33,577 nucleotides of DNA. It comes from Syntrophomonadaceae bacterium. GTDB lineage: Bacteria > Bacillota > Syntrophomonadia > Syntrophomonadales > Syntrophomonadaceae. The notes under the pieces were generated by a model that was given only the letters and a program-made list of their open reading frames with translations, was not told the origin of the DNA and did not search any database. The position numbers and the translations under genes were made by a program. The stretch is from contig DATMYR010000067.1 in assembly GCA_035560815.1 (NCBI GenBank), positions 1 to 33,577 of the forward strand. Direction: 5' to 3'. Shown here piece by piece: positions 20,955 through 30,723 of this stretch (its first letter is position 1; each line of letters opens with the position of its first letter).

Positions 20955-21560
20955 CTATAAGTGATCGGGGAGATTTAGGACTAATTCTTCCAAGGTCTTG
21001 CTCCTGATTAAGGCTGCAGTGATCTTAGGATGTGGATTCCGATAGATAACGGGGTCCTCGCTTTCGCCCAATTCGTTCCTAACCGGGAAAGCTAGGATTT
21101 CCCTTTCAGTACAGAATTCCGCGTAAACCCCTTCCTTATTTCCTCTGGCATCCAGCCTGATCCAGCGGTTCAGACTTCTTAAAAATACAGCATTCAAACC
21201 GTGAATTACCAGGCGAGATGGGTCAAGATCATCGAGAACCAGTCTTTGATAACAAAACCCGGCCGGAATGCGCCAATAACGAAGTAAGGCAGCCAATAAG
21301 TGAGACTTGGCGTAACAAATTCCTTCTTGATAAAGCAGGACCTCGGAAGCCCTGCAGGTGACAATTACACCGCTGCCATCAAACGAATGTCTAATGGTAT
21401 CTCGAACCCATTCATAACAGGATCTAACCAGGGGAATCTCATGGCTACTATCTGCACCTATTTGCTGAGCGATTTTTTGAATGTTCGGTTCGAAGAAATC
21501 AATCATCTCTGAAGACTCCAGATACAGATCCAAATTCTCAATTTCGGGAAAGATAAGCAT
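20955..21560 (-). CDS. Transglutaminase-like (papain-fold Cys-His-Asp) domain protein
   Basis: GICYAKSHLLAALLR core typical of the transglutaminase-like superfamily. ATG with GAAGGAG ribosome-binding site on the minus strand. Confidence 0.7.
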   Translation of the reverse strand: MLIFPEIENLDLYLESSEMIDFFEPNIQKIAQQIGADSSHEIPLVRSCYEWVRDTIRHSFDGSGVIVTCRASEVLLYQEGICYAKSHLLAALLRYWRIPAGFCYQRLVLDDLDPSRLVIHGLNAVFLRSLNRWIRLDARGNKEGVYAEFCTEREILAFPVRNELGESEDPVIYRNPHPKITAALIRSKTLEELVLNLPDHL

Positions 21561-21708
21561 GAAAGCCAGCTCCTTCGCTGAAGCCCGTATGTTGATTGTA
21601 AAAACAATTCGTTATAAATCCATCTAATACCTGCTCTGCATGACCTTCCGATGATTGATTTAAGCAGCAGTATTCCATACAACTCTGACAGTATGGAGAC
21701 CGGGCATT

Positions 21709-22350
21709 CTAAAGGGCTTTCAGCAATGCTGTAACATAACGGTCAAATGCATCCTTATCCTGGAACAGTTGATTCCTCAAGGGAGTGCTTAATTCCAACT
21801 GCACACCCGCTCCTTCTCTATTGCGGTTGCAGATATTGTCCGGGTCTCTCCCCCCAAGGTTGCCGGGTGCCCTCACTACAGAAAATCCGGCCGATTCCAA
21901 TTGCTGTTTCACTTTCTGTCCCAGAGCATTGTCTCGGCCGCCTAAATTGGTCACAGCCTTTTGGGTACCGTAACACCCATGGATAGAAAGAGTTTGGTCA
22001 GATTGAGCGACCATGCTGCATGCGATGGGTTCATCAAAATGGGTGGAAGTAATATGCAGTGGTCTGGGTTTGAGCCCAACAAAGCTATAAAAATCATAGC
22101 CTCCCTGGCTGGCTACGGCCGAGGCCACCTCACTGGTTTCGCGTTCGATGGATCCGCCATGGATGGCGAGTATACTGGTGGACGAACCCCTATCCTGAGT
22201 GATGATTTGATAATCAACATTGGGAGTCTCCCGGGAATGAAGCTGTTCGAAGTTTTTGTATGTATCAGCCCGGGCTTGTTCATAGGAACCGAATGTGATG
22301 AATATAAGAATTAGAAAGGTAAATGAAAACAAGTACGAAATTTTCTTCAA
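21709..22350 (-). CDS. Poly-gamma-glutamate hydrolase family protein (PghP/YjqB-like zinc amidase) with signal peptide
   Basis: SILAIHGGSIE ... LHITSTHFDEP ... LSIHGC ... NLGGRDPDNICNRN ... GVQLELS matches the PghP/UPF0714 family. Hydrophobic N-terminal signal. TTG start after AAGGAGAG. Confidence 0.8.
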   Translation of the reverse strand: MKKISYLFSFTFLILIFITFGSYEQARADTYKNFEQLHSRETPNVDYQIITQDRGSSTSILAIHGGSIERETSEVASAVASQGGYDFYSFVGLKPRPLHITSTHFDEPIACSMVAQSDQTLSIHGCYGTQKAVTNLGGRDNALGQKVKQQLESAGFSVVRAPGNLGGRDPDNICNRNREGAGVQLELSTPLRNQLFQDKDAFDRYVTALLKAL

Positions 22351-22565: not shown

Positions 22566-22972
22566 AGGAAACTGGTGCGATGGAGTTTGCTGGAAGGAAA
22601 ACCGGTTAGCAGAACTCAGGTTCGTGCAGGGAGCCCATAATCCGTAGGGATGCGGAGTAAAGACCTATTTGAACTAGATAAAGGAAATGGGCGTTTTGTG
22701 AAGAATTATTACGAAAAATGATATACAATGAAGAATAGAGAGGATATCACAACACCAGAGACTTTCCTTAAATTGACATTGTCGATGTTAAATATTACCT
22801 TTTACATAGGTTCACACGCCACAAAGTGGTTTAGAGTACGCGGATACTGTCCTCGGGCATGACGGTTTCTTTATGCTTCCATATGCTCCGAGGGAGGGTT
22901 TTCTTCTCTTTAAACCCGGTTGTCTGAGGGCTTGTTGGTTGCCATGAAATAAACACGATGGGGAGGTTTACC

Positions 22973-25207
22973 ATGGACTTATTTATTGGCATGTCGTTAA
23001 TCGCTCTGGGTATTTTTCTTCTATTCTTTTTAATCTGGCTGTCAAATTTCTTGGTAGTCATTGGGGGAACTCAAATCGGCATCGTTGAACGAAAGTATCT
23101 GGGCCGCCAGCTTCCCAGTGACCGGGTTATCGCCCAGAAGGGGGAAATAGGGGTTCAAGCTCGAACCCTCGGCCCTGGCATTCATGTTTTCTTCCCCTTT
23201 TTATTTTCAGTTACCAAACAGAGTTTTATCGTTATCCAGGAAGATAGCATCGGTTTGGTGGAAGCCATAGATGGACGACCACTTACTTCGGGGCATATCT
23301 TTGGCCGCTCAGTTGAAGGACACAATTTCTATCAAGATGCGGAAGCTTTCCTGCAAAATGGAGGGCAGAAGGGGCCGCAGAGTGACTATATCCCCCCCGG
23401 TACCTATCGCATCAACACCCGTCTTTTCAAGGTAACCCTGGTCAGTGCGATTAGCATTCCGGAAGAAGCCATTGGAATTGTAGAAGCAGCAGATGGTGTG
23501 CCGATTCCGGCGGGAAATATCTTTGCCCGTTCGGTGCCTGGCCACGGATTCTACCAGGATGCCGAAGCTTTTCTAGAGAACGGAGGGCAAAAAGGACCGC
23601 AGACCGATTATCTCCCACCTGGGACGTACCGTATCAATACCAAGTTCTTCAAGGTGACTTTGGAACCGGTTGTCAGTATTCCCCAGGGAAGTGTGGGCGT
23701 GGTAACAGCCACGGACGGATCGCCTATCGATCCGGGCCGCCTGTTGGCCCGCGCCGTGACCGGGCATAATAATTTCCAGGATGGGACTTCATTCCTCATT
23801 AATGGAGGACAGAAAGGTCCCCAGTTGGATATACTTTTACCCGGTAAATACCGGATTAATTCTCGCATGTTTCAGATGACGCAATACCCGGCCATTATGA
23901 TCAGCTCAGGGAGTGTGGGATTGGTTACCGCAAAGGATGGTGAACCCCTGCCGGCCAATGAGTTAATCGCCGAATCAGTGAGCGGTCACGAAGGCTACCA
24001 GAACGCCGCCGGTTTCCTGAACAATAAAGGGCAAAGAGGGCCGCAATTGGATGTGCTGCCTCCCGGGACCTATTATATCAACCCCTACATGTTTGCCGTC
24101 GATCTAGACGCAGCAGCAGTGGTCAACCAGGGAGAAGTAGCTGTGATTATATCCAACGTAGGCCAGCGGCCTCCCCAGAGTGCCGCGGTGGGGGAACCGA
24201 TATTGAGCGGGGACCGAATCGAGTCTTACGTAGTAGAAAAGGGATATAGAGGCATTCAATTGGAGGTAGTGGGACCGGGCACCTATTATATCAATAAGCG
24301 AGCTTATATTCCCATTATTGTCAAAACCACCAACACTACCATTGACTGGGATGATGAATCGCCGGAAGGCAGCTTCAATCCACTGAATGTAACTTCAAAA
24401 GATGGGTTTATCATTAAGGTGGGAGTCAAAGTAGTTATACGGGTGCAGCCCGAGCAGGCGCCTTATATGGTAGCCCGTATCGGCAGCATCGAAAACCTGG
24501 TCATGAACGTGATCCATCCCTTGATCGATAGCAGTTTCCGCAACCAGGCCTCCTCAACTGAGGCTATGAAGTTCTTACAGGATCGTCATGAGCAGCAGGA
24601 GAAAGCCCTGGAGAGAGTACGGAACGAACTGGAAAAGTATCATGTGGAAGTCTTAAGTGTTCTTATCTGCCAGATTCAGATTCCTGAGGCCTTGATGGAA
24701 ACCCAGACCAACAAGGTAATTGCCGCCCAGCAGCAGGATATGTATACCCAGCAGAGGGAAGCGGAAGTTAAGCGTATTGATATGGAGCGCACCCGGGCGC
24801 AGGCTAACAAGCAAGGGGAGATTGTCTCCGCCGAAGTGGGCGTCAAGGTGGCAGAGCAGGAAAAAATCAAGACGGTAACGATCGCTGAAGGAAACTCCAG
24901 CCGGGTGAAACTGGAAGGCCAGGGCGAGGCGGAGAAGATTCTGGCCATTGGCAAATCCACTGCTGAAGCCTATGAATTAACCCGTGCCGCCATCGGGCCG
25001 GAAAGCGTAGCTTTCATCGAATTGATGAAATTGATATCTGGCGGGAACGTTAAAATTACTCCGGATATCGTAGCCGGGGGCGATTCTGGCTCCCTGCTTA
25101 ACATTATGCTGGCTCGCATGTTAGCTCGAAACAGTGTTCCAGTCTTAGGACAGGCAGAAACTGCTGCTACCAATGGGGCTGCCACCGGAAGCGGCGAAAA
25201 GGGATGA
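22973..25207 (+). CDS. SPFH/band-7 (flotillin-like) membrane protein with five inserted tandem repeats of about 80 aa and a Glu/Ala/Gln/Lys-rich coiled-coil tail
   Basis: N-terminal TM helix. SPFH start (VVIGGTQIGIVERKYLG ... LGPGIHVFFPF). Repeats IGLVEAIDGRP ... GGQKGPQSDYIPPGTYRIN occur five times. SPFH C-lobe and flotillin-like EA-rich C-terminus. ATG at 22973 after GGGGAGG. Alternative ATG at 22958. Confidence 0.85.
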   Translation: MDLFIGMSLIALGIFLLFFLIWLSNFLVVIGGTQIGIVERKYLGRQLPSDRVIAQKGEIGVQARTLGPGIHVFFPFLFSVTKQSFIVIQEDSIGLVEAIDGRPLTSGHIFGRSVEGHNFYQDAEAFLQNGGQKGPQSDYIPPGTYRINTRLFKVTLVSAISIPEEAIGIVEAADGVPIPAGNIFARSVPGHGFYQDAEAFLENGGQKGPQTDYLPPGTYRINTKFFKVTLEPVVSIPQGSVGVVTATDGSPIDPGRLLARAVTGHNNFQDGTSFLINGGQKGPQLDILLPGKYRINSRMFQMTQYPAIMISSGSVGLVTAKDGEPLPANELIAESVSGHEGYQNAAGFLNNKGQRGPQLDVLPPGTYYINPYMFAVDLDAAAVVNQGEVAVIISNVGQRPPQSAAVGEPILSGDRIESYVVEKGYRGIQLEVVGPGTYYINKRAYIPIIVKTTNTTIDWDDESPEGSFNPLNVTSKDGFIIKVGVKVVIRVQPEQAPYMVARIGSIENLVMNVIHPLIDSSFRNQASSTEAMKFLQDRHEQQEKALERVRNELEKYHVEVLSVLICQIQIPEALMETQTNKVIAAQQQDMYTQQREAEVKRIDMERTRAQANKQGEIVSAEVGVKVAEQEKIKTVTIAEGNSSRVKLEGQGEAEKILAIGKSTAEAYELTRAAIGPESVAFIELMKLISGGNVKITPDIVAGGDSGSLLNIMLARMLARNSVPVLGQAETAATNGAATGSGEKG
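23240..24430 (+). repeat. Five in-frame tandem repeats of about 240 bp inside the flotillin-like gene
   Basis: Recurring DNA and protein units (e.g. TTCTACCAGGATGCCGAAGCTTTTCT / GGAGGGCAGAAAGGGCCGCAG and FYQDAEAFL.NGGQKGPQ). Units 1-2 are nearly identical, 3-5 progressively diverged. Confidence 0.8.
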
Positions 25208-25326
25208 GAAAACGCTTGCGGTTCACGGTAATGAAGGGGAATCAGTCTCGAATAGTAGGCACCGTGCATCCTTAAACGAATAAATAGTAAATATTTGATA
25301 GAAATACTGAACCCCCGGAGGTGCAT

Positions 25327-26268
25327 GTGCTAAAAGAGAGAATTTTAGGGGGATTATTGGGTGTAGCTGTAGGCGACGCACTGGGTTTGCCGGTGCAGTT
25401 TAACAGCCGCAAAGCAATGGAACAACGACCTGTAACGAATATGGAGGGTTGGGGTGTTTTCAACCTGCCACCGGGGGCCTGGAGTGATGACACCTCCTTG
25501 ACCTTTTGCCTGGCGGAAAGCCTCGCGGAAAAAGGCCTCGATATCGAGGATACAGGTCAGCGTTTCCTGCGCTGGTACACAGAGGGCTACTGCACCCCTA
25601 CAGGAGTTTCCTTTGATATCGGGAAGAGCACCAGGCAGGCTATGGAGCGCATCCGTACAGGATGCCCGGCAGCGGTAGCGGGAGGCACAGGGGAAAGAGA
25701 CAACGGCAATGGTTCACTCATGCGTATTCTGCCTGCCGCTCTCTATTTTCATCGGGATCGTCAACCAGATCTGGCTGCAAAAATATGGGCATTCTCCTCC
25801 ATAACCCACGCGCATCCCCGGGCCTGCTCGGCCTGTTACCTATATGCTCTCCTGGCGAAAGAGCTTCTTCAGAGTTCCAGCGCAGCGCAAGCCTATATGA
25901 AAATATGCAGTATGGAGTTGTCTCCCGGCTTGGATCCTGGTGAGCGCGATCACTTTCAACGACTGCTTGGAGGAAGCTTGCATTTGCTGCCCAGGGATGA
26001 AATTGAATCAGACGGTTATGTTGTTCATACCCTGGAAGCTGCCCTATGGTCCCTATTAAATCAAAGGAATTTTGCTGATACCGTATTGGAAGCCGTTAAT
26101 TTAGGTGATGATACAGACACTACAGCAGCTGTGGCTGCAGGCCTGGCTGGGCTGTATTATGGTCTGAAAGGAATTCCCCTGAAATGGCAACAGGCACTGA
26201 TTGGCTACGATATTCTTCTGAGAGTGGCCGATCTCTTCGCAGAAAAGATTAAAAAGAACTTTGAATAG
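25327..26268 (+). CDS. ADP-ribosylglycohydrolase family protein (ARH/DraG-like)
   Basis: ILGGLLGVAVGDALGLPVQF ... SDDTSLTFCLAESL ... DTDTTAAVAAGLAG are hallmark ARH motifs. GTG start at 25327 after CCGGAGG. Alternative GTG at 25321. Confidence 0.85.
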   Translation: MLKERILGGLLGVAVGDALGLPVQFNSRKAMEQRPVTNMEGWGVFNLPPGAWSDDTSLTFCLAESLAEKGLDIEDTGQRFLRWYTEGYCTPTGVSFDIGKSTRQAMERIRTGCPAAVAGGTGERDNGNGSLMRILPAALYFHRDRQPDLAAKIWAFSSITHAHPRACSACYLYALLAKELLQSSSAAQAYMKICSMELSPGLDPGERDHFQRLLGGSLHLLPRDEIESDGYVVHTLEAALWSLLNQRNFADTVLEAVNLGDDTDTTAAVAAGLAGLYYGLKGIPLKWQQALIGYDILLRVADLFAEKIKKNFE

Positions 26269-26487: not shown

Positions 26488-27093
26488 TTGGGTGTAGAGG
26501 AAATCGCTGCGGAAGACAGGAGTGGCATCTTCGTAACGGGAGCTATTGTAGATGTCGAAACAACTGGTTTCAGCCCTGAGTATGACGAAATCATTGAGAT
26601 CTGTATCATCCTTTTTGTTTTTAATAGAGAAACCGGAGTGGTTAGCCAGATCATTGAAGAGTATGTAGGGCTGCGTGAGCCGGCTTGTGGAATACGACCC
26701 GGGGCTGCCCGGGTTAATGGCATTACCGTGGCCGATGTCCAGGGAAGGGATCTTGACTACGCTAAAGTGTCGGCAATCCTTGAGCAAGCTGAATTCCTTA
26801 TCGCTCATAATGCTTCCTTTGATCGCGGTTTCCTGGTTCGCCTTTTTCCCCAGGTTGCCATCAAATCCTGGTTTTGCTCGATGTCGGGGATTAACTGGCG
26901 GGGTAAGGGGTTTCCCAACCGCCGTCTTCAGGACCTATTATCCTGCCATGATATCAGGCCAGGAAGGGCTCACCGGGCTCGGGACGATGTGCGAGCCACC
27001 CTGGAACTCCTGTCTTTCAGCCAGGAATGGGGGGCGACCTACCTGTCTGAACTGCTGATAGGGCGGAGGATGAAGGCCAACAAACGGAGGTGA
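26488..27093 (+). CDS. DnaQ-like (DEDDh) 3'-5' exonuclease
   Basis: Exo I VDVETTG, Exo II IAHNASFDRGFL, Exo III HRARDDV. TTG start 9 nt after AAGGAG. Confidence 0.75.
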   Translation: MGVEEIAAEDRSGIFVTGAIVDVETTGFSPEYDEIIEICIILFVFNRETGVVSQIIEEYVGLREPACGIRPGAARVNGITVADVQGRDLDYAKVSAILEQAEFLIAHNASFDRGFLVRLFPQVAIKSWFCSMSGINWRGKGFPNRRLQDLLSCHDIRPGRAHRARDDVRATLELLSFSQEWGATYLSELLIGRRMKANKRR

Positions 27094-27779
27094 AACATGG
27101 CTCAAAAGTCGCAGATGGCAGTCATGACTGCAAGATGATTGAGCTGAAACAGCTTGCCAGTGCTGTCCACCAATACTTCTGGCAAAATAAGCTGTTATTG
27201 GTGCAATCACTAACTGAGGGCCAGCAACTCCTGGAGGCGCTGATACGGGAAGGGATAGCCTGGGCTAATCTGCGACCCATCACACCGCTGGAGTTGGCTC
27301 TGGAAATGATTCAACCAGATATGCAGCAACGGGGTTTAGAACGAATCGAGCCGGATCAACTTTTGTTTATGTTGAACGAAATCATCGCGGGCCTTGAACG
27401 GCGAGGGGAGATTGTCTATTTTCGACAACTCCTGGAGACGGGCGTCTTGACCCAGGTGATCGTGAAGAGCATCACTGAATTACGTCTGACCGAGGTGGAG
27501 GCCGCTACCCTTAGTCCCGAGCAACTTGGGGACCCCCAAAAGGCAAGGGAAATGGGCCTTATCCTCAACGCCTACGATCTGGAGCTGGAAAGCCGAGGCT
27601 TGATGGATGATGCAGCGGTCTTCCAGCGCGCAAATGGACTACTTTTAACCGGTACTAACTTATTGTCAGAAAAAGTAATTATTATACCTGAAAAACTACC
27701 ACTATCAACAATAGCGAATCATTTTGTCAGCCAGCTTAAGAAACATTCTGGAATCATCCTCTGGGAAAACCCGCTGTAG
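27090..27779 (+). CDS. Hypothetical protein translationally coupled to the exonuclease (ATGA overlap), possibly a truncated remnant
   Basis: No recognisable catalytic motif. The reading frame runs into an AT-rich tract (about 27650-27930) and ends without a terminator. Confidence 0.4.
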   Translation: MKHGSKVADGSHDCKMIELKQLASAVHQYFWQNKLLLVQSLTEGQQLLEALIREGIAWANLRPITPLELALEMIQPDMQQRGLERIEPDQLLFMLNEIIAGLERRGEIVYFRQLLETGVLTQVIVKSITELRLTEVEAATLSPEQLGDPQKAREMGLILNAYDLELESRGLMDDAAVFQRANGLLLTGTNLLSEKVIIIPEKLPLSTIANHFVSQLKKHSGIILWENPL

Positions 27780-27930: not shown

Positions 27931-30723
27931 TTAAATATTCTTCCATTCACCCCGGTTCTGATCAGGAAAGTTCTTACAGCGTATTTCACCCGGTCTGCTG
28001 GCCACCTGGGCCTGGCAAGACTCGGGACGGTTGTTGCTGGCCCAGATGTGGCAGATAGGAATGTTCATTTCTTCAGCCCGGCCTACAATCTGTGCTGTCA
28101 CCGAAGAATACTTCCGGCGATTGCCGTCCCATACTACCATGATCACATCGCTGTGGTCAGCGATATAATGTCCGGTCTTTAAATAGGCTGTTTGGCGGGT
28201 AGGGGAGAGTGGCATCTCAATTACTTCAATAGCACGATTGGACAACCAGTAGTTGAACTCGTTGCGCAATTCAGCTCCCTGAGGATCTGTTCGGTAATCA
28301 TCACTGATGCCGAAATCGTTGATGTATTGTTCCAGGGCGTAAGGCAATACGGCAATGAGTCGAGAGGCTTCTATTTTCAATAATTCACGGGCCACCAGGC
28401 GGTCGGCTCCCAGAGCCAGAGGGGAAAAGACGGTAAGATAGTGCTCGGGGTACTCTTGCTTGATATAGGCAATAGCATGATCCACTGCCTCCTTAAGTAT
28501 ATCCATCTCCTCCGGGTCCAGGTTTACGTGCCCGGTAATTCCTATCCTCAGCATCTCCCGGTGACCCAGATATGTCAAGTCATTGAACTCTTTCATGTTT
28601 ACATGCATCTCAATAATGTGATCGGGGGGCAGGCTGGATAGTTCGTATTTGCGTTTGTCGGCCAAACTGCTCATCTTGAGCAAATTCTCAAGAGAACGCG
28701 ATCCATGGCGATAGCGGGTGGTAAGAAGGAAGGCGTCCAGGACTCCGGAGTCGATTTCAAACTGGCTGCTATGCATGATCTGCGGCGCATTGGACTCAAG
28801 AGATTGGCGCAGGATAAAAGCCCGGCGGATCATATAGAGCCGGTCTTCAACGGTATTGGGGTTGCCGTTGATACCTCGAATGTTGATGAAGGCCCGCAAG
28901 CGGCTGATAAAATCAGGCTTTTTGGCCGCCCGATCAGAGGAACTATCTCTCTCACTGAATTCTTCAAAGGAGTGTCGGGTGGCTCCGGCGAAAACATAGA
29001 TGCCGCCGCCCAGTGGGTGGGGAAGGCCCTGATACGTGAATTCGCCATCCTGCATGGGAGCCAGAAAATAACGGAGCCATCCCAGGGGCTGGCCCTGGCA
29101 GGGAGTATCGAATTCATCCCAAAAAACCAGTGGCATTTTCCCTTTCAGGTTCAGGTCGCGAACCTGGTCAAAGGCGGTCTGCAATTCCTCAGCCGAATCA
29201 AACTGGGAGAGGTTAAAAGTAAGCTGAGCATCCTCGCCAATGCCCAACCCTTTAGCGATTTCTTTAATGACAAATGACTTACCCGCTCCCGGCTGCCCGA
29301 AGACCGCTACGCAGATCGGCTTTTCCGGCCTTTTTAGGCGCAGGTAATCACGCATGGCATTATTAACGCTGCGCACCCCTTCTATTTCCTGACGGTCAGC
29401 ACTGCTCCAGGCTCCCACCGTCTCTACCGGAACATTCAATAAAGCTGCCTGGGGCCCATTCACTACGATGTTTCTTGCCAATTCATTGACCGCCCGAATG
29501 CTCTGAGGGTCTTGCACACAGCACTCTCGGTCCAGGTTTTTCCATAACGCATCTTCCAGAATGGTCCACCTGCCTGGTTTACTGCGAGCGGTATTTTTAT
29601 CATCCACAAAGATGCCCAGTTCACTGACAAGATCCAGGAGAGGCAAACCGGTGGCACTTTTCTTACCGGTTTTCAATTCCTGATAAGCGTAAACCATGGT
29701 CTGGTAAGGAAACTGCAGGTGTTTATGCTCATCGTGCTCCACCACGTCGTAGCCCTTGATATGAAGGAGGCGGGCTAGTTCTAAACCAATGCGGGTGGCT
29801 TCAGTCCAGTCCACGCCCTCCGGGTTTTCTGCCCAGGAGACGGCCAATGCCCCAATAATACAGCTATTGTCACCGATGATCTGACCGGGGAACTGGCTGG
29901 CGAAATCACCTTCTTGCCCCCGACGGTCGAAGATCAGGGTATTGACCTTCTGCCCTACAATGACAGCACCGCTTAGCCCGATGGGGACAATAACCTGATG
30001 GTATTTTATATTTTTTCCTGTGGAATCTGCAAAGGGGCAGCTGGGACTCAATACAGCTTTGACTACTTCCTCCAGCATGCGCTCCCAGGATAAGGAAATG
30101 CCCACCTTAACCGCACAAGCCCGCAGGTCACTCAAGGAGCTGACGATCGTGGTTTTCTGTGCTAGACCTAATTCTATAATCCGGCTGAGCAACGGGTTTT
30201 CCTGTCCGTTGTTATACTGGCCGAGTTTCAGAATGATATGAGCCGGGCTTTTTTCTCCCCCGGTCAAAACTTCAGGCCATCCTGCCGGACAGTGACTAAA
30301 ACCAAGACCACTGTCCTGAATCAGCAGCAGGTCGGGATATCCGCTTAGACGGGCGGAAGGGTAATCCCAGTTACCAGTTTCAAATTCGTGCCATTTCCAG
30401 AGGCGAAAGGAGTTCTGATGCAGTCCCGGGTTGGCAAACTCTTTCCACAAAGTCCAGGAGGTGGTGATGCATCGGTCTTTGGGTCGCTTTAATAGGTCGT
30501 CATCCAATATTGCGCCTTCCACCCGGGCTATCTGGGGCGAGATCATTTCATTCAACAATTCTAGTATCAAGGCCGATCCACCCGGCTTGGAACTGAGCCG
30601 CACCCGGGAATCCTCATCTTGCCGCTGCCAGTAGTAGACGCCCCCGTGTACAGTCACGTCATCGTGGTGAATCCGAAACCAGTCTACGGTGGGATCGCCG
30701 CACACCTGTATCAATAAACACAT
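27931..30723 (-). CDS. Large three-part protein: uncharacterised N-terminal region (about 480 aa), AAA+-like P-loop ATPase, C-terminal SLOG (SMF/DprA-LOG) Rossmann-like domain
   Basis: Walker A VAVFGQPGAGKSF, Walker B MPLVFWDEFD, sensor-like VFAGATR. C-terminal VFSPLALGADRLVARELLKIEASRLIAVLPYALEQ aligns with the DprA/SLOG core (SGLA.GID ... AH ... AL ... IAVL ... GLD). ATG at 30721-30723 follows AAAGGCGGGAGG. The 34-codon ORF-track extension lacks a ribosome-binding site. Confidence 0.8.
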   Translation of the reverse strand: MCLLIQVCGDPTVDWFRIHHDDVTVHGGVYYWQRQDEDSRVRLSSKPGGSALILELLNEMISPQIARVEGAILDDDLLKRPKDRCITTSWTLWKEFANPGLHQNSFRLWKWHEFETGNWDYPSARLSGYPDLLLIQDSGLGFSHCPAGWPEVLTGGEKSPAHIILKLGQYNNGQENPLLSRIIELGLAQKTTIVSSLSDLRACAVKVGISLSWERMLEEVVKAVLSPSCPFADSTGKNIKYHQVIVPIGLSGAVIVGQKVNTLIFDRRGQEGDFASQFPGQIIGDNSCIIGALAVSWAENPEGVDWTEATRIGLELARLLHIKGYDVVEHDEHKHLQFPYQTMVYAYQELKTGKKSATGLPLLDLVSELGIFVDDKNTARSKPGRWTILEDALWKNLDRECCVQDPQSIRAVNELARNIVVNGPQAALLNVPVETVGAWSSADRQEIEGVRSVNNAMRDYLRLKRPEKPICVAVFGQPGAGKSFVIKEIAKGLGIGEDAQLTFNLSQFDSAEELQTAFDQVRDLNLKGKMPLVFWDEFDTPCQGQPLGWLRYFLAPMQDGEFTYQGLPHPLGGGIYVFAGATRHSFEEFSERDSSSDRAAKKPDFISRLRAFINIRGINGNPNTVEDRLYMIRRAFILRQSLESNAPQIMHSSQFEIDSGVLDAFLLTTRYRHGSRSLENLLKMSSLADKRKYELSSLPPDHIIEMHVNMKEFNDLTYLGHREMLRIGITGHVNLDPEEMDILKEAVDHAIAYIKQEYPEHYLTVFSPLALGADRLVARELLKIEASRLIAVLPYALEQYINDFGISDDYRTDPQGAELRNEFNYWLSNRAIEVIEMPLSPTRQTAYLKTGHYIADHSDVIMVVWDGNRRKYSSVTAQIVGRAEEMNIPICHIWASNNRPESCQAQVASRPGEIRCKNFPDQNRGEWKNI

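What the first reader, a model, noticed from the sequence alone, without database searches (positions are those of the whole stretch)
27931..30723. Stand-alone 930-aa gene combining an unknown N-terminal half, an AAA+-like ATPase and a C-terminal SLOG/DprA-like nucleotide-sensor domain
This gene is one of only two minus-strand gene blocks in a window that is otherwise + strand, and the accessory-type genes either side of it are unrelated. The AAA+-like motifs are GQPGAGKS, VFWDEFD and VFAGATR. The last about 200 aa carry the SGLA.G(I)D ... LIAVLP pattern of the SMF/DprA-LOG (SLOG) superfamily, whose members bind nucleotide-derived ligands and recur in conflict systems (for example Thoeris ThsA). 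Read directly from the sequence, the architecture is an unknown N-domain, an ATPase and a SLOG domain, and I could not match it to any named defence system. It therefore looks like a candidate undescribed signal-sensing effector or immunity protein. The first 480 aa contain no motif I recognise and would be the presumptive effector.
Basis: partly seen in the sequence, partly recalled or inferred. Interest (0 to 1): 0.85.

Follow-up and report, generated by a model that had tools for sequence, protein, structure and literature searches.

The report
Ribokinase-fold, AAA+, SLOG sensor protein
This 930-residue protein joins a ribokinase-like domain, an AAA+ ATPase and a SLOG nucleotide-binding domain, and it is the single-chain form of a large uncharacterised family that in other phyla is split into operons with TIR immune-signalling genes, which makes it a candidate for a new nucleotide-signal-controlled immune or signalling device.

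The parts
27931..30723 (-). Complete gene, 930 codons plus stop. ATG at 30723 with a GGGAGG ribosome-binding site upstream.
   Evidence: full-length homologues
29689..30723 (-). Ribokinase/PfkB-fold domain, residues 1 to about 345. Residues conserved across the family are G9, D10, D14, W15, G48, G49, R107, D137, D199, R201, S212-W213-E214, G252, D266, E271, G280, G284 and R318.
29404..29688 (-). Linker and pre-ATPase helical region, residues 346-440. The first half is variable. The conserved WTILE motif is at residues 386-390.
28624..29403 (-). AAA+ ATPase module, residues about 441-700. It holds an invariant DRxEIE motif (443-448), Walker A 476-483 (nt 29275-29298), Walker B 533-539 (nt 29107-29127), sensor-1 T582 (nt 28975-28995), candidate arginine finger R608 in KKPDFISRLRA, and candidate sensor-2 R676 in HGxRS.
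   Evidence: Pfam AAA scores 21.3 bits against a cut-off of 21.2, with weaker Torsin, AAA_22 and nSTAND_NTPase5 hits. A profile search of PDB finds Vps4-like and AFG2-type AAA proteins over residues 448-547. Invariance. Coordinates. No fold was predicted for this part.
27934..28581 (-). SLOG domain closest to YpsA, residues 715-930. First strand RIGITGH at 726-732. The GxD motif (G772-A773-D774) lies in SPLALGAD (nt 28402-28425). LIAVLP is at 789-794, and VWDG follows.

Best explanation
The gene encodes the single-chain form of a widespread, unnamed conflict or signalling module. Its fixed core is a ribokinase-fold domain joined to an AAA+ ATPase, and its partner is a YpsA-like SLOG domain. 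I propose the following mechanism. The C-terminal SLOG domain binds a ribose-containing nucleotide signal, most likely an NAD-derived ADP-ribose derivative of the kind TIR proteins make. Ligand binding changes the assembly state or ATPase cycle of the AAA+ module. That in turn switches on the N-terminal ribokinase-fold domain, which binds a ribose-bearing small molecule, and probably phosphorylates or otherwise consumes it, leading to growth arrest or another cellular response. Shown here: the three folds or motif sets, the fused-versus-split gene relationship, and the association with TIR, SLATT and RyR genes in other phyla. Inferred: the identity of the ligand, which domain is the output, any kinase activity, and any defence phenotype.
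For: 2. The GxD/E motif named as the YpsA-clade substrate-binding signature (PMC6459960) is present as G772-A-D774.
3. The domains occur fused or split. In 20 loci a separate SLOG protein homologous to this C-domain (HMM E 1e-16 to 1e-52) lies beside a ribokinase-fold/AAA+ gene that lacks SLOG, usually as the next gene in the same direction.
4. In L077 and L088 that neighbour is a SLOG-SLATT fusion, a published type of SLOG-coupled membrane effector.
5. A TIR gene lies within four genes in 18 of 30 split-clade loci and in four fused-clade loci outside the Firmicutes. In L043 (also fetched as L003) a TIR gene ends 4 nt before the fused gene. Overall 24 of 30 TIR genes point the same way as the core. 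The TIR proteins also carry WD40, TPR, LVIVD or STAND modules.
6. SLOG-only relatives on plasmids sit in a TIR-caspase-SLOG operon and in a SLOG-DUF4231 plus TIR plus WD40 operon.
7. The ATPase motifs and a set of polar residues at the sequence positions of the PfkB substrate, Mg and ATP sites are at least 95% conserved down to about 30% identity, which argues that both modules are active.
8. The distribution is patchy across phyla at 50-70% identity, some genomes have two copies (L041 and L045 come from one MAG), and the genomic context changes even within Syntrophomonadaceae.
Against: No TIR gene lies in the window or near any of the roughly 45 Firmicute loci examined. The neighbours here are ordinary chromosomal genes, with no mobile-element or defence-island marks. 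No homologue was found in phage or viral collections. The PADLOC models give no match. The family is unusually well conserved for an immune gene. The PfkB sequence signatures are not intact, and Pfam PfkB and hhalign detect nothing, so catalysis by the N-domain is uncertain. The ATPase fold and the full-length arrangement were not modelled. Nothing here distinguishes a SLOG sensor from a SLOG enzyme.
Confidence: 0.5

Rival explanations
1. In Syntrophomonadaceae the protein is a physiological regulator, not an immune protein. It would sense an endogenous nucleotide or NAD metabolite through SLOG and adjust nucleoside, ribose or NAD metabolism through the ribokinase-fold domain, with the AAA+ module acting as the switch. 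B. subtilis YpsA is a precedent: a SLOG protein that took on a cell-division and stress role.
For: The gene stands alone among chromosomal metabolic and housekeeping genes, with no TIR gene nearby. It is present in many Syntrophomonas species and keeps local synteny among close relatives. Sequence conservation is high. The authors of the YpsA study suggest YpsA has acquired an "institutionalized" cellular role (PMC6459960). It is absent from phages and nearly absent from plasmids.
Against: Context differs between at least five groups within one bacterial family, and there is no conserved metabolic partner. The same fused form sits directly beside TIR genes in Acidobacteriota. The wider family is embedded in TIR, SLATT and STAND operons. 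Its spread across phyla at high identity is patchy.
Confidence: 0.25
2. The SLOG domain is an enzyme rather than a sensor. Like LOG, it would cleave an N-glycosidic bond, or it would process a TIR product. Together with the ribokinase-fold kinase it would make or destroy a nucleotide signal, so the protein would be a signal generator or signal modifier rather than a receptor-effector.
Against: The best structural matches are YpsA, ShosA and DprA, not LOG. No match to the Pfam LOG-family model (PF03641) appeared in the Pfam scan of the C-domain. The nearest SLOG relatives are fused to SLATT pore domains, an arrangement usually read as sensor plus effector.
Confidence: 0.12
3. The ribokinase-fold domain is a catalytically dead ligand-binding or protein-binding N-domain. 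The real output would be the AAA+ motor, remodelling or unfolding a target protein or simply burning ATP. SLOG and the ribokinase-fold domain would then be two input sensors.
For: The PfkB sequence signatures are degenerate. The position I align with the GAGD catalytic aspartate is not clearly kept, and D273 is not conserved in the wide alignment. Neither Pfam nor hhalign recognises the domain. N-terminal domains of AAA+ proteins commonly recognise substrates (general knowledge). Several relatives pair the core with a TIR gene and have no SLOG at all (L065, L068, L075, L076, L086, L089), so the core itself may sense the signal.
Against: D10, D14, GG, D199, G252, D266 and E271 are at least 95% conserved at the sequence positions that hold the PfkB substrate, Mg and ATP motifs. 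That pattern is more than a scaffold would need.
Confidence: 0.13

Closest known systems
Thoeris type I effector ThsA (SIR2-SLOG), partnered with the TIR protein ThsB
   Different: There is no SIR2 domain. The SLOG domain is much closer to YpsA, ShosA and DprA than to ThsA. An AAA+ ATPase and a ribokinase-fold domain take the place of the NADase. No TIR gene lies next to the gene in this window. The ThsA models in PADLOC do not match.
YpsA (B. subtilis, PDB 2nx2) and the YpsA-like SLOG clade
   Different: YpsA is a stand-alone protein of about 180 aa linked to cell division. Sequence identity is only 15%. The Pfam scan of the C-domain returned no YpsA-family match beyond one weak cpYpsA hit (E 0.23, 1 of 23 members). 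Here the domain is the C-terminal part of a 930-aa ATPase.
Ribokinase/PfkB carbohydrate and nucleoside kinases (for example pseudouridine kinase 7c1x, ribokinase, adenosine kinase)
   Different: Sequence identity is 9-16%. There is no Pfam PfkB match. The NxxE and DTxGAGD signatures are not intact. The domain is fused to an AAA+ ATPase, an arrangement I found described nowhere.
SLOG-SLATT and TIR-SLOG conflict systems (described by Burroughs et al. 2015, as cited in PMC6459960; type III Thoeris and the untested '4TM SLOG' and 'SLOG Patatin' candidates in the 2025 preprint)
   Same: The SLOG clade found here is also found fused to SLATT/DUF4231 and next to TIR genes, which is the published sensor-effector layout.
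   Different: In this protein the partner is an ATPase with a kinase-fold domain, not a pore, patatin or SIR2. The 2025 survey lists an untested 'ATPase' effector class, but I could not establish that it is this family.

Membership tests
SLOG (SMF/DprA-LOG) superfamily | Rossmann-like three-layer fold with the SLOG strand order, recognised by structural similarity to DprA, LOG, YpsA, MCP and TRPM MHR1/2 | tested here: met
SLOG (SMF/DprA-LOG) superfamily | Glycine-containing loop after strand 1 and a G-x-D/E or SGxAxGxD-type motif after strand 2 | tested here: met
   RIGITGH (G728, G731 and H732 conserved in at least 90% of homologues) and SPLALGAD (G772 conserved in at least 90%; D774 in most)
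YpsA clade of SLOG | Sequence-level membership (Pfam YpsA-family models) | tested here: not met
   No Pfam match for the query C-domain. One of 23 members hits cpYpsA at E 0.23, and 4 of 23 hit DprA at E >= 0.069. Only the fold ranks YpsA first.
Thoeris (TIR signal generator plus signal-activated effector) | A TIR-domain gene in the same operon or immediately adjacent | tested here: not met
   A TIR HMM finds nothing in the 33.6-kb window and nothing in the Firmicute loci. The feature is met only in relatives: L043, L046, L053, L057 and 18 split-clade loci.
Thoeris (TIR signal generator plus signal-activated effector) | Protection against phage and activation by a TIR-made ADPR derivative | not testable with these tools
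   Needs experiments
ThsA | SIR2 NADase domain fused to SLOG | tested here: not met
   No SIR2 match in Pfam or PADLOC. The N-domain has a PfkB fold.
AAA+ ATPases | Walker A GxxGxGK[ST], Walker B hhhhDE, sensor-1 polar residue, arginine finger, sensor-2 arginine in a helical lid | tested here: met
   GxPGxGKS, VFWDEFD, T582, R608 and R676 are all at least 96% conserved in 45 sequences. Pfam AAA scores 21.3 bits against a cut-off of 21.2. PDB profile hits are to Vps4-like and AFG2 AAA proteins. Assigning R608 and R676 to these roles is by motif position only.
AAA+ ATPases | AAA+ fold (alpha/beta core plus helical lid) and ring assembly | not tested
STAND NTPases (nSTAND5) | Match to the family model above its threshold | tested here: not met
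   PF25199 scores 17.2 bits against a cut-off of 34 for the query and 27.3 bits for a Chloroflexota relative
PfkB/ribokinase kinase family | Ribokinase fold | tested here: met
PfkB/ribokinase kinase family | Sequence signatures (GG motif, NxxE, DTxGAGD with a catalytic Asp) and a Pfam PfkB match | tested here: inconclusive
   GG is present and invariant. There are possible degenerate equivalents: S196-x-x-D199, and D266...G269-Q-E271-G-D273. The equivalences were made by eye.
DprA (DNA-processing protein A) | DprA sequence family and its accessory domains for ssDNA and RecA loading | tested here: not met

The most novel reading that the evidence does not exclude
The ribokinase-fold/AAA+ core, with SLOG fused or encoded next door, could be the effector of a new and very widespread TIR-signalling immune system. 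In that system an ADP-ribose-derived second messenger would switch on an ATP-driven small-molecule kinase, an output type not known for any nucleotide-signalling defence. Syntrophomonadaceae would carry a self-contained single-gene version. A side implication concerns bacterial RyR domains. They replace SLOG at the C-terminus of the core and recur on a TrkA_N partner protein in the same TIR operons, so they may belong to cADPR-type signalling. That would echo the cADPR-ryanodine-receptor link in animals.
Probability: 0.3. Interest if true: 0.88.

Novelty: new variant of a known kind. Interest (0 to 1): 0.72.

Why it matters
If this reading is right, the gene gives access to a large protein family that nobody has characterised: more than 2,000 clusters at 50% identity and hits in at least 591 species-level genomes. 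The family would extend TIR/SLOG nucleotide signalling to an ATPase-plus-kinase-fold output and into phyla that defence catalogues cover poorly, such as Chloroflexota, Acidobacteriota and syntrophic Firmicutes. The fused single-gene form is a compact object for biochemistry: one polypeptide carries the presumed sensor, switch and output. The co-occurrence of RyR domains with TIR genes could also bear on how cADPR signalling in animals originated.

Tried and rejected
1. Sequence searches with the N-domain and C-domain profiles against PDB and Pfam gave nothing usable: a GAPDH hit at E 0.07, a ROP hit at E 1.9, and weak DprA hits. Only structure prediction resolved the domains.
The PfkB motif equivalences therefore remain manual.
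3. No genuine PfkB gene was present in the fetched loci to use as a real-sequence bridge.
4. I tried to identify the untested 'ATPase' effector class in Table S1 of preprint 10.64898/2025.12.03.692087. Its TIR sequences are only 22-37% identical to the TIR proteins next to this family. The nearest database relatives of one of them lie next to TPR-S/patatin genes or unknown genes, not next to this family. The question is unresolved.
5. The ADP-ribosylglycohydrolase and exonuclease genes in the window are not functional partners. ARH recurs in none of the other loci, and the exonuclease only in L013 and L039.
6. The promoter and terminator scan around the gene was no better than shuffled sequence.
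7. The phage, viral-contig and plasmid collections gave no full-length homologue.
8. I rejected the longer 964-aa GTG ORF as the true start.
9. I rejected DprA-like DNA binding and STAND membership; see the membership tests.

Full report
**The feature is real.** The minus strand carries an open reading frame that ends at the stop codon 27931-27933. The ATG at 30723 follows a GGGAGG ribosome-binding site and gives 930 residues. About 120 listed homologues are 915-935 aa long and align from residue 1, so the longer GTG-initiated 964-aa ORF is not the gene. The window has only one other minus-strand block, at 20955-22350. The rest of the window is ordinary Syntrophomonadaceae chromosome: CheB, methylmalonyl-CoA mutase with MeaB, a CCA-adding-type enzyme, a sigma factor, an SPFH protein, an ADP-ribosylglycohydrolase, an RNase_T exonuclease and a DUF218 gene. 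The database copy of the protein is annotated only as a hypothetical protein from a Syntrophomonadaceae MAG.

**Sequence libraries say little.** Pfam gives a borderline AAA match (21.3 bits against a cut-off of 21.2) and P-loop-level hits. PADLOC and NCBIfam give nothing meaningful. Profiles of the N- and C-terminal regions find nothing in PDB or Pfam.

**Structure prediction resolves both ends.**
- It keeps the GxD/E motif that the YpsA authors name as the clade's predicted substrate-binding signature (PMC6459960), here as G772-A-D774.
- I did not model the ATPase. Its Walker A, Walker B, a sensor-1 threonine, an arginine in a DFxSRL motif and an arginine in HGxRS are invariant or nearly so. 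Profile hits in PDB are to classical AAA proteins.

Most match only profile positions 1 to about 720, that is, the ribokinase-fold domain plus AAA+. A scan of one genome per species finds relatives in at least 591 species. Those in the 80 loci retained come from Syntrophomonadaceae, Peptococcaceae, Acidobacteriota, Chloroflexota, Armatimonadota, Thermoleophilia and some Proteobacteria. The C-terminus varies. It is SLOG in the clade that holds the window gene, and RyR repeats in many others.

**Fused-or-split evidence links SLOG to the core.** I called ORFs in the fetched loci and searched them with HMMs.
- In 20 loci, a protein homologous to the window's SLOG domain is encoded by a separate gene beside a core gene that lacks SLOG. 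It is usually the next gene downstream, and sometimes it is divergent upstream.
- In two loci, that neighbour is a SLOG-SLATT fusion.
- The typical Chloroflexota operon runs in this order: core with RyR, then SLOG, then a TrkA_N...RyR protein of about 600 aa, then one to three TIR proteins carrying WD40, TPR, LVIVD or STAND modules.
- A TIR gene lies within four genes in 18 of 30 split-clade loci. It also lies beside the fused form in four non-Firmicute loci. In one of these the TIR gene ends 4 nt before the fused gene.
- The nearest SLOG-only relatives on plasmids sit in a TIR-caspase-SLOG operon (B. subtilis pBS72) and in a SLOG-DUF4231, TIR, WD40 operon (Caballeronia).

Together these results place this SLOG clade and its ATPase partner within TIR-centred nucleotide signalling.

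**The window's own clade weakens the case.** In Syntrophomonadaceae and other Firmicutes the fused gene stands alone. No TIR gene is in the window or in any Firmicute locus. Neighbours are housekeeping or miscellaneous genes, and context is shared only among close relatives; at least five different contexts occur within the family. The window's context recurs only in L013 and L039. No phage, viral-contig or full-length plasmid copy exists. A domesticated physiological role, as the authors suggest for B. subtilis YpsA, therefore remains a serious rival.

**Mechanism.**
- Shown: the folds of the two end domains, the motif set of an active AAA+ module, and the gene-neighbourhood logic.
- Inferred: SLOG receives a ribose-nucleotide ligand, the AAA+ module converts binding into assembly or an ATPase cycle, and the ribokinase-fold domain provides the output.
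- The argument for a functional pocket in the N-domain is conservation. G9, D10, D14, G48, G49, D199, G252, D266 and E271 are at least 95% conserved down to about 30% identity. In sequence order they fall where PfkB kinases have the substrate-binding loop after strand 1, the GG dipeptide, the NxxE motif, the TxGxxG loop and the DTxGAGD motif. These equivalences were made by eye against the predicted secondary structure and are not supported by any alignment tool.
- D273 is not conserved in the wide set, so the catalytic base, if there is one, is uncertain.
- Several relatives pair the core with a TIR gene and have no SLOG, so the core may itself sense a signal.

**Comparison with known systems.** The logic resembles Thoeris: a TIR generator and an effector that carries SLOG. 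The protein is not ThsA, because it has no SIR2 domain and its SLOG is of a different clade, and in this genome the defining TIR partner is missing. No paper in the searchable library combines SLOG, ribokinase and AAA+, or RyR, TIR and SLOG. A December 2025 survey of TIR systems lists 29 candidate effector types, including an untested 'ATPase' class. I could not show that this class is the present family. I therefore rate the gene as a new variant of a known kind of system. The immune role is supported by association in other phyla, and its function in this organism is open.

Noticed in passing
L063:4415-7036, L063:7672-9501, L070:13287-15059, L062:9044-10852, L090:6611-9172: RyR (ryanodine-receptor repeat) domains recur in the same operons as TIR genes. 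They form the C-terminus of the ribokinase-fold/AAA+ core and the C-terminus of a TrkA_N (NAD-binding Rossmann) partner protein. Canonical cADPR is linked to ryanodine receptors in animals, as noted in preprint 10.64898/2025.12.03.692087, so this bacterial co-occurrence may be worth a study of its own.
   Followed up: partly
window 27090-27779 (+): This 229-aa ORF has no Pfam match, and its start overlaps the stop of the RNase_T exonuclease gene by 4 nt. It is about 34% identical over about 160 residues to part of a 667-aa protein that lies next to the homologous gene in L013 and L039. It may be a shortened or rearranged version of that longer gene.
   Followed up: partly
window 22958-25207 (+): The 749-aa SPFH/Band_7 protein has about four tandem repeats of some 70 aa ahead of the Band_7 domain. 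Each repeat ends in a motif like NGGQKGPQxDxLPPGTYRIN. Close homologues (59% identity) occur near the gene family in L045 and L056.
   Followed up: no
L091 (B. subtilis plasmid pBS72) 3638-5492: A three-gene operon encodes a TIR protein, a caspase-family protein and a 162-aa SLOG protein related to the window's C-domain. It resembles type IV Thoeris (TIR plus a caspase-like protease) with an extra SLOG gene.
   Followed up: partly
L058:10969-13542; L041 and L045; L043:25-273: Copy-number oddities. An Armatimonadota homologue carries two SLOG domains in tandem. One Thermacetogeniaceae MAG has two paralogues on different contigs. The Acidobacteriaceae island in L043 holds a fragment of a second copy about 10 kb upstream of the complete gene.
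   Followed up: no
L036 / L007 (MAG labelled Chitinophagales): The contig that carries a 58%-identical homologue also has genes with the copper amine oxidase N-terminal domain. In my experience that domain is typical of Firmicutes, and a gene in the window has it too. The contig may be mis-binned, so the apparent Bacteroidota occurrence should not be trusted.
   Followed up: no
window 25321-26268 (+): An ADP-ribosylglycohydrolase gene lies three genes away from a SLOG-domain protein. That is suggestive for ADP-ribose chemistry, but the pairing recurs in none of the 84 other loci examined, so it is probably coincidental.
   Followed up: yes
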